A stretch of DNA of 27,067 bases from a virus (IMGVR_UViG_3300005758_000238:1-27067); one strand, 5' to 3'. Positions 685-22,056 are shown, counted from the first letter of the stretch. Program-made: numbers and translations. Notes: generated by a model not told the origin, from the sequence alone.

Positions 685-867
685 ATGTGGACACTTGACA
701 ACATCGCAGGAAGACTGCTAGAATTGGAGGAACAATACTATGACTTGCAAGACAAGTATCAGTTGTTGATCCACCAGTATGAAACTTTGAAGGCAGACCA
801 TGAAAAGATTAGTGCTCGACATCGAGACAAATCTAACACAGACCAAGATTTGGGTAGTAGTAACTAA
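685..867 (+). CDS. Hypothetical coiled-coil protein (60 aa)
   Basis: ORF track; heptad-like LLELEEQYYDLQDKYQLL; fills the gap before the polymerase. Confidence 0.55.
   Translation: MWTLDNIAGRLLELEEQYYDLQDKYQLLIHQYETLKADHEKISARHRDKSNTDQDLGSSN
695..724 (+). promoter_or_regulatory. Candidate sigma70 promoter upstream of the DNA polymerase
   Basis: TTGACA (695-700), 18 nt spacer, TGn extended -10, TAGAAT (719-724); lies within ORF 685-867. Confidence 0.5.
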
Positions 868-1648
868 AGACATTGACACAGGTGAAACAAGATTATGGAA
901 AGCAGCAAAGCCCCTTCAGGAGTATTTAAAGGACACTTCCTTGATAGTCGGGCACAATCTCATCGCCTTCGACGCCTATCACTTGAACAGGCTATGGAAT
1001 TTGAGGATACGTTTGAGTCAAGTCTTCGATACGCTAGTGGTAAGCAGGCTACTCGATCCGAGCAGACCAGAGGGCCACAGTCTGGAAAGTTGGGGAAAGA
1101 CTCTCGGGATCGGGAAGATTGACTATGCAGGTGTATGGCAGTGGCTAAACAATAAACGACAGGACTATGATGGGCAGTGCTTTGATGAACCCCATGAGCC
1201 TCTTATGGATCATTATTGTGTTAGGGACGTTGAAGTATCTACTCGACTGTATCTTAAACTATGCAATGATCTTAATGAGAAACAGTTTTCACAAGATAGT
1301 GTTGACTTGGAACACAAAGTAGCAGCTATCATAGCGGAGCAAGAACGTAATGGATTCAAACTCGATGTGCCCTATGCAGTTTCCCTCCTTACTGAGATCA
1401 AAGGAAAGTTGGCTGTCATCTATGAGCAAATGCAAGAGAGATGGCCTCCATACGAGGTGCCTAGAGTGTCCGCTAAGACAGGAAAGCAACTTAAACCTGA
1501 GACCATCACGTTTAATCCCGGCTCTCGTAAGCAGATTGGAGAAAAGCTGATAGAATTGGGATGGAAGCCTAAACAGTTCACAGAAACTGGACAGCCGATA
1601 ATTGATGAGTCTGTACTAGATCAAATTATTAAGGAGTGCGACAAATGA
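800..1648 (+). CDS. DNA polymerase family A, N-terminal part (3'-5' exonuclease plus first half of thumb)
   Basis: ExoI LDIET, ExoII GHNLIAFD, ExoIII YCVRD; thumb motifs EQERNGFKLD and FNPGSRKQI; ends just after DESVL. Confidence 0.93.
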   Translation: MKRLVLDIETNLTQTKIWVVVTKDIDTGETRLWKAAKPLQEYLKDTSLIVGHNLIAFDAYHLNRLWNLRIRLSQVFDTLVVSRLLDPSRPEGHSLESWGKTLGIGKIDYAGVWQWLNNKRQDYDGQCFDEPHEPLMDHYCVRDVEVSTRLYLKLCNDLNEKQFSQDSVDLEHKVAAIIAEQERNGFKLDVPYAVSLLTEIKGKLAVIYEQMQERWPPYEVPRVSAKTGKQLKPETITFNPGSRKQIGEKLIELGWKPKQFTETGQPIIDESVLDQIIKECDK

Positions 1649-2373
1649 GCACACCCACAAGACAGTGTGATGAGTGCTTACATTTTACTTATCCTGATTG
1701 GCCTCATTGCGATAAGGGACATAAACCTAAATTTTTCTCTCCTACTATTGCTGTTGACACGAAGTCGTGGGGTTACAAACGTAAATGTGATGATTTTAAG
1801 GAGAAAGTAATGAATGTAGACGATCTTTTTGGTGAGGTGCTTTATACAGGTCAACCGATTCCTGAAATCGAGCAGAGAAATAAAGAAACCATGACCGCGC
1901 TGCTGCCTGCCGGGTGCATTAATTTTAACCCTGATTGGCTAAAACCGGGAGCTTTGGTGGAAGTAACTATGGATAACATACGCGCTTATCACAAAGAAGT
2001 TTACCGACTTACGGAACTTGCTAAACAACAGTCTCAGACTATCACCAACATGCAGAATGCTATCACACATTGGGACGAACAAGAAGAAGGTAGTGAAGGT
2101 ACAAGAGCGTACCAAGCATGGAGAAGGTCTGAGGCTTACGCTGTTCCTGTTACCGATAAAGGCGCAGAAGCAGCAGAGCAAAGACGTAAGCAGTTCAATA
2201 AAGGTTTCTATGCTGGTTTGCGACACGCTGCTTTGGTGTTAGAACTAGAGCACAAGAAAGTCAAAGATCACGGAGGACATCACAATTACTATGGCGTAGC
2301 CTCTCAAATTGTTCGTAAAGTTTACATGGAAGATTTGTCCGAACAATGTACACAAACAACAAACAAGAGTTAA
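1645..2373 (+). CDS. Hypothetical protein between the two polymerase halves (242 aa; N-terminal Cys/His module)
   Basis: AAGGAG at 1631-1636 and ATG 1645 overlapping the pol-N stop (ATGA); second in-frame AAGGAG/ATG at 1798-1812. Confidence 0.75.
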   Translation: MSTPTRQCDECLHFTYPDWPHCDKGHKPKFFSPTIAVDTKSWGYKRKCDDFKEKVMNVDDLFGEVLYTGQPIPEIEQRNKETMTALLPAGCINFNPDWLKPGALVEVTMDNIRAYHKEVYRLTELAKQQSQTITNMQNAITHWDEQEEGSEGTRAYQAWRRSEAYAVPVTDKGAEAAEQRRKQFNKGFYAGLRHAALVLELEHKKVKDHGGHHNYYGVASQIVRKVYMEDLSEQCTQTTNKS

Positions 2374-3257
2374 AAGAAGTAGCCACACTGATCCGAAACT
2401 ATCTGATGCTCCAAAAGCGTGTGGCCCAGATCGAAAGCTGGTTAGAGGCTGTGAAGGATGACGGCAGGGTACACGGTAAGGTCATTACCAACGGGGCAGT
2501 GACAGGCAGGATGACGCACAGCGGCCCTAACATGGCTCAGATTCCTAATGCAGGTTCTGTCTATGGACATAAGTGTCGTGAGTGTTGGTCTGTTGAAGAT
2601 GGTAATGTCTTGGTAGGCTGTGATGCTTCAGGTCTGGAGCTTCGTATGCTTGCTCACTATATGAAAGATGATGACTATGTCAGAACAGTTACAGAAGGTA
2701 GCTCTAAAGATGGTACAGATGTACACACGGTCAACCAACGAGCTGCTGGATTGGCTACCCGAGATAGTGCCAAAACTTTCATCTATGCCTTTCTCTACGG
2801 AGCTGGAGATGCTAAAATTGGAAGCATCGTTGGAGGAACTGCTAAAGATGGTGAAAGACTTAAACGAAAATTCCTCCAACAAACTCCAGCCCTTGCCTCC
2901 CTCCTTAAAAGAGTGGCCTCCCAATCCTCTAAAGGGTGGGTTCCCGGACTTGACGGAAGACGTATCTGGGTGCGAAGTGAACACGCAGCACTTAACAGCC
3001 TCTTACAAGGAGCAGGCGCTATCGTAATGAAGAAAGCATTGTGTATCTTCTACGACAAGATCAAGGCTAATAAGTGGCCTGTGAAGCTAGTCGCTAATGT
3101 ACACGATGAATTCCAGTTCGAGTGTCCTCCTGAGATCGCTGAAGAGGCAGGGAAAGCTGCTAGAATGTCAATCATTGAAGCAGGAGAATACTTCAAGCTA
3201 CGGTGTCCTCTTGATGGAGAGTACAAGATAGGTAAGTCATGGAAAGAAACCCATTGA
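2346..3257 (+). CDS. DNA polymerase family A, C-terminal part (rest of thumb, palm, fingers)
   Basis: GAVTGRMTHSGPNMAQIP, motif A DASGLELR, motif B RDSAKTFIYAFLYG, motif C VHDE; T7 gp5-like. Confidence 0.95.
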   Translation: MYTNNKQELKEVATLIRNYLMLQKRVAQIESWLEAVKDDGRVHGKVITNGAVTGRMTHSGPNMAQIPNAGSVYGHKCRECWSVEDGNVLVGCDASGLELRMLAHYMKDDDYVRTVTEGSSKDGTDVHTVNQRAAGLATRDSAKTFIYAFLYGAGDAKIGSIVGGTAKDGERLKRKFLQQTPALASLLKRVASQSSKGWVPGLDGRRIWVRSEHAALNSLLQGAGAIVMKKALCIFYDKIKANKWPVKLVANVHDEFQFECPPEIAEEAGKAARMSIIEAGEYFKLRCPLDGEYKIGKSWKETH

Positions 3258-3281
3258 CAAACCTAGAAAGTGTGCTACAAT
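3254..3281 (+). promoter_or_regulatory. sigma70-type promoter for tRNA/HNH/ssb
   Basis: TTGACA (3254-3259, contains the pol stop TGA), 16 nt spacer, TGn, TACAAT (3276-3281); 17 nt before the tRNA. Confidence 0.75.
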
Positions 3282-3298
3282 ATTAGGTATAGATTAAC

Positions 3299-3382
3299 GA
3301 GACTGTGGCGTAATCGGTAGCCGCAGCAGACTTAAAATCTGCCGCCTTGTGCGTGAGGGTTCGAGTCCCTCCAGTCTCACCA
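3299..3382 (+). tRNA. tRNA-Leu, anticodon TAA
   Basis: Acceptor GAGACTG/CAGTCTC, anticodon arm GCAGA-CTTAAAA-TCTGC, long variable arm, T arm GAGGG-TTCGAGT-CCCTC, discriminator A, encoded CCA. Confidence 0.95.
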
Positions 3383-3498
3383 AGCGTTCACTAACGCTGC
3401 ATTAACAAACGGCCTTGACTGCTATGGGGTTCTTTTTGATAGACAATCAGTGACACTCTGGAGAGACAGAGATTTAATTTAACACAAAGGAAAATGAA

Positions 3499-3957
3499 AT
3501 GGACTTAACACAGCAAGAGCTGAAAAGGTTAGTCACGTATAATCCTAAAACAGGTATTTTTACGTGCAACAAAGAAGGAGCAATAGGAGGAAGAAAAGAA
3601 GGACAAATTCTTGGCTCTCCTAACTCAAGGGGCTATTTATGTCTAAGGGTTGCAGGAAAGAAATATCTAGCTCATCGACTAGCTTGGTTATTCATGAAAG
3701 GAAAATTTCCTGAAAAGCTAGTAGACCACATCAACAGAAATAAACAGGATAATAGATGGAACAACCTTAGAGAAGCGGATCATCTGAGCAACGCTCAAAA
3801 CAATGGAAAACCTTGTGTAGATTTTAGAAAAGGTAAATATCGTGCTAGAATCTGTGTAAACTATAAAGAAGTTTTTATAGGTGCTTTTGATACTTACCAA
3901 GAAGCAGAAGACGCTTACTACACAGCAAAACAGCATTATCGCGTATTTAAGGAATAA
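3499..3957 (+). CDS. Free-standing HNH homing endonuclease with AP2-like C-terminal DNA-binding domain
   Basis: AHRLAW...VDHINRNKQDNRWNNLR HNH motif; C-terminal KYRARI...IGAFDTYQEAEDAY. Confidence 0.9.
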   Translation: MDLTQQELKRLVTYNPKTGIFTCNKEGAIGGRKEGQILGSPNSRGYLCLRVAGKKYLAHRLAWLFMKGKFPEKLVDHINRNKQDNRWNNLREADHLSNAQNNGKPCVDFRKGKYRARICVNYKEVFIGAFDTYQEAEDAYYTAKQHYRVFKE

Positions 3958-19569: not shown

Positions 19570-20052
19570 TTACTCCGGCTGTGTAGGCCACTGAACTTCC
19601 CAAGGGAAGCCCTCTTGTGCGCTGATGTCGCGCAACGCCTGCCGATACGTAGCCCATGCGGCCTTGTCCACGGGTGCGTCTGCGACTTGTGTCCAGTCAG
19701 AATCGCTCAGGCGCTTGTTGCGGTCATCGCGCACAGCCTTAGCCTGCTCAGCATCCTTCATGGCTTTGTAGGCCGCTTCCTGCTCGGCTGCTGTGGCTTC
19801 TTCGGTGTCGGTGAAAATCGGCCCCAGCATGTACTTGGTGTACCACTTGCCGTTGATCTGCTCCACGCCCTGACGCTGGCTGTACTGGTAGCGATCACCG
19901 CCAGACGCCTGCGGGCCTTCAAAGACCACATCAGCACCAAAGTCGTTGAGCAGTGCCTCAGACAATTGCAGTGGCATCGAGGTGTTGCGGTGCATGGCGC
20001 GGAATTCAGATTCCGTCACCACCTGCCCAGATTTACGAATATAGATTTCCAT
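19570..20052 (-). CDS. Phage tail (fibre) assembly chaperone
   Basis: C-terminal RDDRNKRLSDSDWTQVAD...WATYRQALRDI...WPTQP motif. Confidence 0.85.
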   Translation of the reverse strand: MEIYIRKSGQVVTESEFRAMHRNTSMPLQLSEALLNDFGADVVFEGPQASGGDRYQYSQRQGVEQINGKWYTKYMLGPIFTDTEEATAAEQEAAYKAMKDAEQAKAVRDDRNKRLSDSDWTQVADAPVDKAAWATYRQALRDISAQEGFPWEVQWPTQPE

Positions 20053-20064
20053 GTGTTACTCCAA

Positions 20065-22047
20065 TCAGGCTATCGCCAAGAAAATGAAGGTCCCGCCGTT
20101 GGCATTGATTGCAGCAGGCGCGAAGCTGCTGATCTCAAACCCTTGCGCGTAGGTGTCAACGTAGTCGGTGTTTGTCACTTCAGCCGCTGTGCTGTTGAGC
20201 AGCAGATATGGGTCGTTACCAGCCACTATGCCACGGGCAGAATCCCAGACGTACCAATCACCTGTGCTGTCAGTGCGCTTGATCAGCACGAACCGAGCAC
20301 CCGCTGTAAAGCCACAGTTGATCTGCTGTGTCGTGCCAGTGCCTGTGTAGCTCCCTACCTTGCTCACGCCGGGGCAGGAGGCAAAGAGGTAGGCGACAAA
20401 CGTAGCCGTATTACCATTCACGTCATCATTGGTGCCTACAGTAAAGACGCTGGATGTGGGGCTGGTGTCGTTCCAAATTGTATTGTTATCAACCGTTGCA
20501 GCAGTGGTGTTTAATACCAAATAATCGGTGTTGTCGTTGTTGGCATAAACAATCCATGCATCAGCGGCGCTGCGCTTTTTCACAATCATCAACTCAGGCG
20601 CAACACCCAAGTTATGCGCCACCGTCCTTGCAACACCCGTCCCCGTGTAGCACACCTCATCAAAGAAGCCGGGGGCGCGGCGGAAGTTCCAGTAAATAGA
20701 ATTGAAGCCTCCATTGTTTGGTGGTATTTGAAACCCCGTGCTATTCCAGAATAGAGTGGCTCCAGAATCAGATGCTTCGATGGAGGTGCTGTTGCTGTAC
20801 AACAAGAGGCCAGAACTTGTGGTATTCGTGCTAACGCTCCGCAAGCGATCAGAAAAGGCTCGGTTTGATGTCGTCCCCGGCCTCACCCTTACCTGAAGAT
20901 CGACAGGAAAGTTTGTAGTTTGCTGGGTGCCTTGAGCGTCGCTAGACAAGATAGGACTAAACACACTCGTCCCCGTTGTCGGCGTCTTCATCGGGCCGCG
21001 ACGGATGGCGATGTAGATGTAGGTGGATGCGTTGGTGTTTACTTCAGAGCTTGTTGAGACAACTTGGAATCCTGTGGCTGTTGGGCTAACGTAATCAACA
21101 GATGATTCAGCGTTGCTCAAGTTTGCTTGCAGCGCTGCATCAGCCGAGCCAACAGGCATACCCCTCATGTTGTCAATGATCTGCCAGTTGCCAGTGCCGC
21201 TGGCATTCTTGATCATAAGCCACTGCGGTTCATAGCCGAGCGAAACTGTTGGACCAGTTGTAGAGCCATTGCCTGTGTACGACCCACACGAAATCACATT
21301 GTCCGTGCCAGTCAGGCCAAAGCCTCCTGCGTCGTGGGCGAAGAGGTAGGCGACGTAGGTGTATCCGGTTTCGTTTGTGGTATTGAATCCGTTGTGACTG
21401 ACGGTGAATGTCGTAGACGTGGGAGCGCCATTAAGCAAGTTTGTGTAGTAAGCACTCAAAAACGAACCAGTGGCGTTCAGTTCGCCTGCCTGTGTGGGGA
21501 GCGAGTTATGCCAAACAATCCAGCTATTATTTCCGTTTATTATTTTGATAATGATGCAGCCGGGAGTAGCGCCGAGGCTGTGGCTAATCTGTCGGTTGTT
21601 GGTAGAGTCCCCCGTATAAGTCACCACATCAAAGAACTTCGGCTGCTTGCGGAAGGTCCATGAGGCGTAGGTCTGGCCTCCGGCGTTTGCAATTTCATTC
21701 GCTATTCCGGGGTCAACAACAGTGAATCCGGATGCAGTAAAGGCTGACAAGTAATCGCTGTTTGCGGAAGGAAGACTTGCAAGACCTTGTGCATCAGTCA
21801 GGTTAGACGACAACGCCCTGTTCGATGCAGTAGCGCTCCCAGTTCCAGCGCCTCGCACTGTGTCCCACCAGCCGTGTGAGTTGGCACTGTTCCTGTTCTT
21901 GATCCAAACCAACCCACCTTTACCATCCAGATCAATCCCGTTGTTGATCGTCTGCGTAGAGTCGTTGCCGGTGTAGAGCCAAGTGCTGAAGACGTCTTCG
22001 ATGTAGGTGGCGTCAGAGGACACCTGTGAAGTATTACTTGAAAACAT
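20065..22047 (-). CDS. Tail fibre-associated / receptor-binding protein with tandem beta-rich domains
   Basis: Repeated YTG...(P)xxxxIK...W units; AAGGAG before ATG 22047; followed by chaperone. Confidence 0.72.
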   Translation of the reverse strand: MFSSNTSQVSSDATYIEDVFSTWLYTGNDSTQTINNGIDLDGKGGLVWIKNRNSANSHGWWDTVRGAGTGSATASNRALSSNLTDAQGLASLPSANSDYLSAFTASGFTVVDPGIANEIANAGGQTYASWTFRKQPKFFDVVTYTGDSTNNRQISHSLGATPGCIIIKIINGNNSWIVWHNSLPTQAGELNATGSFLSAYYTNLLNGAPTSTTFTVSHNGFNTTNETGYTYVAYLFAHDAGGFGLTGTDNVISCGSYTGNGSTTGPTVSLGYEPQWLMIKNASGTGNWQIIDNMRGMPVGSADAALQANLSNAESSVDYVSPTATGFQVVSTSSEVNTNASTYIYIAIRRGPMKTPTTGTSVFSPILSSDAQGTQQTTNFPVDLQVRVRPGTTSNRAFSDRLRSVSTNTTSSGLLLYSNSTSIEASDSGATLFWNSTGFQIPPNNGGFNSIYWNFRRAPGFFDEVCYTGTGVARTVAHNLGVAPELMIVKKRSAADAWIVYANNDNTDYLVLNTTAATVDNNTIWNDTSPTSSVFTVGTNDDVNGNTATFVAYLFASCPGVSKVGSYTGTGTTQQINCGFTAGARFVLIKRTDSTGDWYVWDSARGIVAGNDPYLLLNSTAAEVTNTDYVDTYAQGFEISSFAPAAINANGGTFIFLAIA

Positions 22048-22056
22048 CAAGTCTCC

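What the first reader, a model, noticed from the sequence alone, without database searches (positions are those of the whole stretch)
800..3257. Family A DNA polymerase split inside the thumb into two intact genes, with a passenger gene between and no intron or intein
Seen: pol-N (800-1648) holds all three exonuclease motifs and half the thumb, ending ...GQPIIDESVLDQIIKECDK*. Pol-C (2346-3257) starts MYTNNKQELKEVATLIRNYLMLQKR and holds motifs A, B and C intact. The roughly 700 nt between them is fully occupied by an ORF overlapping both halves, and the three ORFs are in three different frames. Known: in T7 gp5/Pol I-type enzymes the 'DExVL' and 'LIxxYLxxQKR' segments are only a few residues apart in one chain (thumb helices H2 and I). 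Phage pol interruptions are usually group I introns or inteins carrying homing endonucleases. Here there is no non-coding room for a ribozyme, no intein termini and no nuclease motif. Inference: a naturally two-chain PolA whose thumb reassembles non-covalently, with the short extra helical ends as a possible docking interface, or an unrecognised rejoining mechanism. The split site could act as a protected slot for cargo genes.
Basis: partly seen in the sequence, partly recalled or inferred. Interest (0 to 1): 0.85.

Follow-up and report, generated by a model that had tools for sequence, protein, structure and literature searches.

The report
Split phage polymerase with swappable cargo
An uncultured aquatic phage encodes its DNA-copying enzyme as two genes whose proteins likely join up without splicing, and related phages carry at least 16 different passenger gene families in the same gap, which appears to move between cut and uncut copies of the gene by recombination.

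Summary
Contigs from two other runs bridge both junctions. The T7-type PolA is cut in a thumb loop (T7 gp5 ~372-380).

The same break occurs in 60 fetched loci (41 junction types), with at least 16 cargo families: HNH, EndoVII, C5 and N6/N4 methyltransferases, PAPS-reductase-like, Mom-like and hypotheticals. No intron, intein or ribosome-hop signature was found.

Both halves gained new amphipathic helical ends. One Leu in the pol-C leader is invariant across all six Leu codons. The pol-N tail also encodes the cargo's ribosome-binding site, and pol-C always starts inside the cargo's 3′ end, usually without a site of its own.

Split and uncut alleles are interleaved on both half-trees, and one split/uncut pair is ~99% identical on both flanks, so the junction likely travels by recombination. 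One re-fused protein is on record.

Best reading (0.8): a translationally coupled two-chain polymerase with an exchangeable cargo slot. Binding is untested (complex tool unavailable). Split phage enzymes, including PolA at other sites, are published, and this scan has noted thumb-split PolAs in other genomes. Verdict: new variant of a known kind.

The parts
695..724 (+). sigma-70-like promoter (11/12 match, extended -10) upstream of pol-N; none on the + strand inside the slot
   Evidence: consensus match only; 5 sites found vs 4.5 in shuffles
800..1648 (+). pol-N: 3'-5' exonuclease plus N-terminal part of the thumb, 282 aa
1619..1645 (+). split-specific tail DQIIKECDK; predicted end of helix 270-281, amphipathic
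1630..1636 (+). Shine-Dalgarno TAAGGAG for the cargo, encoded by the tail's I-K-E codons (Lys is AAG in 39 of 41 junction types)
1645..2373 (+). cargo gene, 242 aa, function unassigned; mosaic of a Cys-rich module (1-55) and a second module whose residues 156-227 match stand-alone small genes upstream of pol in relatives; dN 0.029 vs dS 0.32 against L140
1796..1812 (+). second Shine-Dalgarno and in-frame ATG (M56) inside the cargo; probable second, shorter product
   Evidence: inferred
2346..2381 (+). split-specific pol-C leader MYTNNKQELKEV, overlapping the cargo's 3' end; Leu9 invariant; predicted N-terminal extension of the long thumb helix (6-35)
2346..3257 (+). pol-C: rest of thumb, palm and fingers, motifs A, B (Tyr type) and C intact, 303 aa

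Best explanation
The phage encodes a T7-type family A DNA polymerase as two genes cut in a thumb loop; the two proteins are likely translated separately from one message and likely reassemble non-covalently, with no splicing. SHOWN: the break site is fixed, both halves are intact, both have new conserved ends, and the gap holds many unrelated genes in relatives. INFERRED (translation): ribosomes finish pol-N, start the cargo at a Shine-Dalgarno site built into the pol-N tail, and re-initiate on pol-C inside the cargo's last codons, so pol-C output would depend on the cargo frame being read to its end. INFERRED (assembly): the halves associate through the native thumb and exonuclease-palm interfaces, and the two new amphipathic helical ends likely replace the lost covalent loop. 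INFERRED (spread): tail, cargo and leader move as a cassette between related polA alleles by homologous recombination in the flanking polymerase sequence, and can occasionally re-fuse. The window's cargo is a replaceable passenger, not a subunit. A homing endonuclease insertion is the likeliest origin (about even odds).
For: Same break: 60 of 131 scored loci (45 distinct slot sequences, 41 junction types; the set was enriched by a junction pattern). 109 of the 120 best pol-N hits of 155-494 aa stop 12-25 residues after the conserved Asp, 107 of them with Ile at each of the two tail positions. 63 of the 120 best pol-C hits are stand-alone and all carry Leu(-10). Protein-level selection: Leu(-10) is present in 41 of 41 junction types and uses all six codons, while uncut alleles have mostly K, D, N or S there. 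Hydrophobic moment is 1.76 (tail) and 1.87 (leader) vs 0.73 and 0.58 at the same positions uncut. Own start: an in-frame start for pol-C in 41 of 41 types (ATG/GTG in 40, 14 expected), and zero non-coding nt in 40 of 41. Selection on the halves: dN/dS of split pairs is like that of uncut pairs in four regions (0.05-0.22 vs 0.09-0.21). Cargo: 15 families among 68 cargo ORFs plus a PAPS-reductase-like one. Mobility: the split label needs 16 and 20 changes on the pol-C and pol-N trees; one clade is rejected for pol-N (p-AU 4.5e-5); split L145 and uncut L029 differ at 5 of 700 nt upstream and 7 of ~635 nt downstream. Re-fusion: P0145 carries both tail and leader in one chain. Precedent: split gp43A/B co-purify and are active (PMC2988022, passages), and the NrdA tails are essential (PMC3045599, abstract and discussion).
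Against: There is no RNA, protein or activity data. Flank dN/dS partly reflects time spent in uncut alleles, because the flanks recombine. The tail statistics from DNA loci are biased by my search pattern (the protein counts are not). Part of the tail's conservation is explained by the Shine-Dalgarno site. Pol-C starts mostly lack a Shine-Dalgarno site (median -2.8 kcal/mol vs background -3.8), and the nearest start overlaps the cargo end by up to 53 nt, long for re-initiation. Split alleles are a minority: 6 of 78 informative loci found with pol-C. Trees of recombining genes show mosaicism but not direction. P0145 is a single record. HNH homologues are also common outside the slot, so they may be ordinary cargo.
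Confidence: 0.8

Rival explanations
1. The halves are rejoined at the RNA or ribosome level (an unrecognised intron, or a T4 gene 60-like hop over the cargo) into one chain.
For: Almost no polymerase sequence is missing. Pol-C mostly lacks its own Shine-Dalgarno site. 31 of 41 junction types keep both halves in the same frame. The MEP401 authors raised an intron for their split (PMC10580990, passages).
Against: No Rfam intron in the window or in 20 split loci. The gap is fully coding in 40 of 41 types and varies from 273 to 1110 nt with unrelated content; all three phases occur. Matched take-off/landing codons occur in 24 of 41 types vs 25.3 when permuted. No unusual RNA structure at either junction (z -0.3 and +1.3). 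The invariant leader Leu uses six codons, and in-frame starts are far above chance.
Confidence: 0.05
2. Two chains are made and associate through the native interfaces only; the new ends are kept for translation signals and local folding, not for docking.
For: The tail's Lys-Glu codons are a Shine-Dalgarno site. In the S-SBP1 split PolA model the new termini are simply solvent-exposed (PMC10201439, passages). The Aeh1 NrdA tails were not needed for heterodimer formation (PMC3045599, discussion).
Against: Ile-Ile and Leu(-10) are conserved as residues with synonymous variation, and they lie on hydrophobic helix faces absent from uncut alleles. Leader residues -12/-11 are unconstrained (pN/pS 0.89) while -10 to -7 are constrained (0.35).
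Confidence: 0.1
3. Split alleles are transient, partly defective products of insertion, kept up by homing drive or by complementation in co-infection; only pol-C works well.
For: Split alleles are a minority among close relatives. Re-fused and long-linker single chains exist (P0145, P0246, L026). Nucleases sit in 8 of 41 junction types.
Against: 33 of 41 junction types have no recognisable nuclease yet keep the ends. The ends are under protein-level constraint across halves 55-93% identical. Stand-alone halves occur on contigs of 30-40 kb.
Confidence: 0.04
4. Assembly chimera or sequencing error.
For: The window is a metagenomic virus record.
Against: Contigs from runs X4 and X5 bridge both junctions. 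The same cargo sits at the same site in L140, whose pol-N is only 65% identical.
Confidence: 0.01

Closest known systems
Genes-in-pieces phage enzymes: Aeh1 nrdA-a/mobE/nrdA-b, Aeromonas phage 25/44RR gene 43A/43B (family B pol), T4 gene 39/mobA/60 (PMC2988022 passages; PMC3045599 abstract and discussion)
   Same: An essential gene is cut in two by an intervening gene with no splicing element; new terminal tails; overlapping starts and stops; endonucleases in some cases.
   Different: Family A polymerase thumb. The ends here are short amphipathic helices rather than oppositely charged tails. The gap content turns over among at least 16 families, and split and uncut alleles are intermixed among near-identical relatives.
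S-SBP1-like split T7-type PolA (Czernecki et al. 2023, PMC10201439, passages)
   Same: A T7-like PolA encoded as two genes, predicted to form a complex.
   Different: Cut between the exonuclease and polymerase domains by a frameshift, with overlapping genes and no cargo. Here the cut is inside the thumb, about 110 residues after the exonuclease domain.
Methylophilales phages MEP401/MEP402 split DNAP (PMC10580990, passages; records OP830906/7)
   Same: PolA in two ORFs with a small unknown ORF tightly packed between them.
   Different: About 24% identity; the cut lies just before motif A (387 + 236 aa), so it is an independent split. The authors suggested an intron and did not resolve it.
Fractured genes with split inteins and free-standing endonucleases (Dassa et al. 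2009, PMC2677866, passages)
   Same: Two gene halves flank a free-standing gene in aquatic phage metagenomes.
   Different: No intein sequence here; the added ends total only about 20 residues.
Pelagibacter phage HTVC103P polymerase (MN698242)
   Same: Closest cultured polymerase found (60% to pol-C, 35% to pol-N).
   Different: One uncut gene.

Membership tests
T7-like family A DNA polymerase | Exonuclease motifs I-III and polymerase motifs A, B (Tyr), C | tested here: met
Genes-in-pieces (splicing-free split enzyme) | Two intact ORFs that together cover the whole ancestral protein | tested here: met
   phrog_17 670-924 and 929-1233; uncut relatives
Genes-in-pieces (splicing-free split enzyme) | Each piece has its own start and stop | tested here: met
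   In-frame start in 41 of 41 junction types; sequence evidence only
Genes-in-pieces (splicing-free split enzyme) | Purifying selection on both pieces and on the new ends | tested here: met
   flank values confounded by recombination
Genes-in-pieces (splicing-free split enzyme) | The pieces bind and form an active enzyme | not tested
Group I/II intron | Structured non-coding ribozyme core flanking the ORF | tested here: not met
Split intein (fractured gene) | Intein N- and C-fragments fused to the halves | tested here: not met
   No such Pfam match; added ends of about 9 and 12 residues
Translational bypass (T4 gene 60 type; features recalled) | Matched take-off and landing codons, short gap, hairpin | tested here: not met
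   24 of 41 matches vs 25.3 permuted; gaps of 273-1110 nt
Free-standing homing endonuclease insertion | Nuclease gene in the gap | tested here: not met
   None in the window; present in 8 of 41 junction types of relatives
Free-standing homing endonuclease insertion | Cleavage of the uncut allele and biased inheritance | not testable with these tools
   Only patchy flank exchange is seen; direction unknown
S-SBP1-like or MEP401-like split PolA | Same break position | tested here: not met

The most novel reading that the evidence does not exclude
The thumb junction is a mobile cargo cassette lodged inside an essential gene. It supplies its own ribosome-binding site and two helices that staple the polymerase back together. 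It makes polymerase output depend on translating whatever gene sits in it, and it converts uncut polA alleles by recombination. It would thus be a splicing-free counterpart of a mobile intron that spreads methyltransferases, nucleases and other accessory genes through a phage population.
Probability: 0.35. Interest if true: 0.75.

Novelty: new variant of a known kind. Interest (0 to 1): 0.56.

Why it matters
Known genes-in-pieces are mostly single cases or fixed clades. Here cut, uncut and one re-fused allele of a polymerase coexist among near-identical phages, with dozens of junction variants. That makes two open questions testable: how short new termini rescue a fragmented essential enzyme (posed in PMC2988022 and PMC3045599), and whether a split site shelters accessory genes. 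It also marks a permissive cut site in the T7-type thumb that could serve split-polymerase design. Finally, it warns that polA-based virome surveys will miscount these genes as fragments.

Tried and rejected
(2) Profile search of the cargo against 1.84 billion representatives: still queued when I closed, no result. (3) Cargo function: Pfam, PHROGs and two Atlas searches gave only hypothetical proteins. (4) Direct or inverted repeats bounding the insert (site-specific excision): only short two-copy matches. (5) The idea that the tail's AAGGAGTG..ATG motif is a shared recombination landing pad: 15 hits outside the junction vs 6.2 shuffled, several not gene starts; not supported. (6) A second split in the exonuclease domain, suggested by 455-478 aa database proteins: 75 of 80 fetched loci were whole and 5 were cut by contig ends, so these are probably late start calls. 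That query spans the junction, so its lack of split loci says nothing about frequency. (7) More long-linker uncut alleles in viral contigs: one hit, the L026 contig itself. (8) Expression: no RNA holder listed. Runs X15-X17 are guessed RNA, and X16 and X17 are flagged probably DNA. Joints that skip ~800 nt also occur in DNA runs with 62-71 other letters between, i.e. uncut alleles. (9) Literature: nine searches found no paper on this thumb break or this family; subscription journals and supplements were not searched. (10) Rows dropped: 6 of 25 and 2 of 50 pattern hits were not polymerases; L037, L041, L055 and L066 were not scored (L066 is uncut, L055 looks split); trees used 74 representatives of 104 near-complete loci, and L077 was left out of the AU test.

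Full report
1. Observation. The three ORFs are as described: pol-N 800-1648, a middle ORF 1645-2373 and pol-C 2346-3257, in three frames with 4-nt and 28-nt overlaps. The halves cover phrog_17 positions 670-924 and 929-1233. The window is a 27-kb virus record, about 71% complete, with one PolA match. It also encodes a major head protein, ribonucleotide reductase, thymidylate synthase, PhoH and endolysin. Runs holding the stretch are mostly freshwater or aquatic metagenomes. Contigs of runs X4 and X5 (one study) bridge both junctions with 7 and 13 differences, so this is not a chimera.

2. The break is shared. Of 80 viral loci found with pol-C, 5 are split at this site (one is identical to the window), L055 has a free pol-C with the N half off the contig, 72 are uncut and 2 are uninformative. 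Junction patterns added 19 of 25 viral and 48 of 50 metagenome hits. In all, 60 split and 71 uncut loci had both halves; the 60 reduce to 45 distinct slot sequences and 41 junction types. Protein searches, which did not use my pattern, agree. Among proteins of 155-494 aa, 109 of the best 120 pol-N hits end just after ...DExxL(D/E)(Q/E)IIK(E/D)C. Of the best 120 pol-C hits, 63 are stand-alone chains with short leaders, mostly 15-24 residues before the conserved Tyr. These length-limited searches exclude full-length uncut proteins, so they do not give frequencies.

3. The gap is a slot with changing content. The 68 cargo ORFs fall into 15 families. Named ones are HNH_3, Endonuclease_7, C5 and N6/N4 methyltransferases and a Mom-like protein, plus a PAPS-reductase-like gene in L129/L130. 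Of 41 junction types, 8 carry a nuclease and 9 a methyltransferase. Some slots hold two genes: L140 has a 105-aa gene in front of a 93% copy of the window's cargo. The window's cargo is under purifying selection (dN 0.029, dS 0.32) but has no assigned family. It is modular: residues 1-59 and 156-227 match separate small genes upstream of the polymerase in relatives. Database variants lose or swap N-terminal parts while keeping the C-terminus that overlaps pol-C (clustering favours in-frame variants). It is therefore a passenger, not a fixed subunit.

4. No sign of rejoining. Rfam finds no intron in the window or in 20 split loci. In 40 of 41 junction types there is no non-coding base between the halves; the distance between the anchor residues runs from 273 to 1110 nt (54-57 nt in most uncut alleles), and all three phases occur, 31 of them phase 0. 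The last pol-N codon recurs in the pol-C leader in 24 types vs 25.3 when permuted. Junction RNA folds no better than shuffles. The added ends are too short to be intein halves. Pol-C has an in-frame start in all 41 types, ATG or GTG in 40, against 14 expected by chance.

5. New ends under selection. Uncut alleles read DExxL..I.(I/L)PEA..IAEYL. Split alleles replace the loop with a tail on pol-N and a leader on pol-C. The leader Leu ten residues before the Tyr is present in 41 of 41 types and uses all six Leu codons; uncut alleles have mostly K, D, N or S there. Positions -12/-11 are unconstrained (pN/pS 0.89) and -10 to -7 are constrained (0.35). AlphaFold2 models of the single chains end pol-N in helix 270-281 and start pol-C with helix 6-35 (pLDDT about 60-70 at the extreme ends). 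Both ends are more amphipathic than the uncut loop. I infer that they pack together, but no complex could be computed. The tail has a second job: its Lys codon is AAG in 39 of 41 types, against AAA in 36 of 38 at the leader Lys, which forms a strong Shine-Dalgarno site for the cargo (median -9.1 kcal/mol with a generic anti-SD). Pol-C starts mostly lack one (-2.8; background -3.8) and lie inside the cargo's 3' end. With a promoter-like site at 695-724 and none in the slot, the simplest model is one message with coupled translation. dN/dS in the exonuclease, thumb and pol-C regions is similar in split and uncut pairs, with the caveat in the next paragraph.

6. The junction moves. On trees built without the junction residues, the split label needs 16 changes on pol-C and 20 on pol-N (shuffled mean 23.2; 50 of 500 shuffles were as low for pol-N). 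A single split clade is rejected for pol-N (p-AU 4.5e-5; LG+G4 quick tree). Identical pol-N cores occur in split and uncut loci (L145/L029 and L117/L020). L145, which carries a methyltransferase, differs from uncut L029 at 5 of 700 nt upstream and 7 of about 635 nt downstream. L140 and L020 differ mainly in a patch from -153 to +89 around the slot. The shared tail and leader point to one origin of the junction followed by lateral exchange (inference). These genes are mosaic throughout, so this shows recombination, not homing or direction; it also means that flank dN/dS mixes both states. P0145 holds tail, a short spacer and leader in one chain, which suggests re-fusion (one record). L026 and P0246 have long-linker single chains. 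An endonuclease insertion is a plausible origin by analogy, but nuclease homologues are also common elsewhere in these genomes.

7. Comparison with what is known. Splicing-free split phage enzymes are established. The review PMC2988022 (passages read) reports active split NrdA and gp43A/B, and notes that the gp43 endonuclease may have invaded an existing split. PMC3045599 (abstract and discussion read) shows that the new NrdA tails are essential, though not for heterodimer formation. For PolA, PMC10201439 (passages) describes an exonuclease/polymerase fission, and PMC10580990 (passages) a split with a small ORF between; I checked the latter, and it is a different site in a ~24% identical enzyme. 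PMC2677866, PMC7468147, PMC8351571, PMC10448857 and PMC5418858 (passages) gave background only. Nine searches found no description of this break (listed under Tried and rejected). Earlier notes of this scan report thumb-split PolAs in other genomes and led me to check PMC10201439, which a search in the same turn also returned. No look-alike stretch of this locus was on record.

8. Verdict. Real, and it works like a genes-in-pieces enzyme (0.8). Membership lacks only the test of binding and activity. It is not an intron, intein or bypass, and it differs from the S-SBP1 and MEP401 splits. What is new is the population behaviour: a fixed thumb break with dual-purpose ends, at least 16 cargo families, and exchange with uncut alleles. 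New variant of a known kind; interest 0.56. The boldest reading, a mobile cassette that protects its cargo through coupling, has probability 0.35 and interest 0.75.

Noticed in passing
window 3254-3957: A second strong sigma-70-like site (3254-3281), tRNA-Leu(TAA) at 3299-3382 and a free-standing HNH_3 gene (3499-3957) follow pol-C; tRNAs lie near the polymerase in 5 of 20 split loci scanned.
   Followed up: no
L087 1516-2202 (also L093, L104, L105, L121, L126): The C5 methyltransferase cargo is overlapped along its whole length by a 225-aa open frame. This recalls two-frame methyltransferases such as M.EcoHK31I (recalled, not checked). The second frame has no Pfam hit.
   Followed up: partly
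L094, L104, L107, L118, L153 (pol-C): A divergent palm/fingers allele (~55-59% identity, 14-residue insert before motif B, KTLxYSVLYG) is recombined behind ordinary pol-C N-termini.
   Followed up: no
P0067, P0051, P0073, P0088: Some stand-alone pol-N proteins carry a DnaJ central-domain-like insert in the exonuclease, a trait I recall from HMO-2011-type polymerases.
   Followed up: partly
P0145; L026; P0179/P0246: Single-chain polymerases with long linkers at the break; P0145 keeps both split-specific ends.
   Followed up: partly
L095 2367-3042: Pol-N has a frame change between residues 173 and 232 relative to the near-identical L052; probably an assembly error.
   Followed up: no
window 2307-2347: A local stem pairs over the bases just before the pol-C ATG in the predicted fold; the region as a whole is not unusually stable (z +1.3).
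   Followed up: no
window 19570-22050: The tail-fibre region has higher GC (0.52-0.56 vs ~0.44), suggesting recent acquisition.
   Followed up: no
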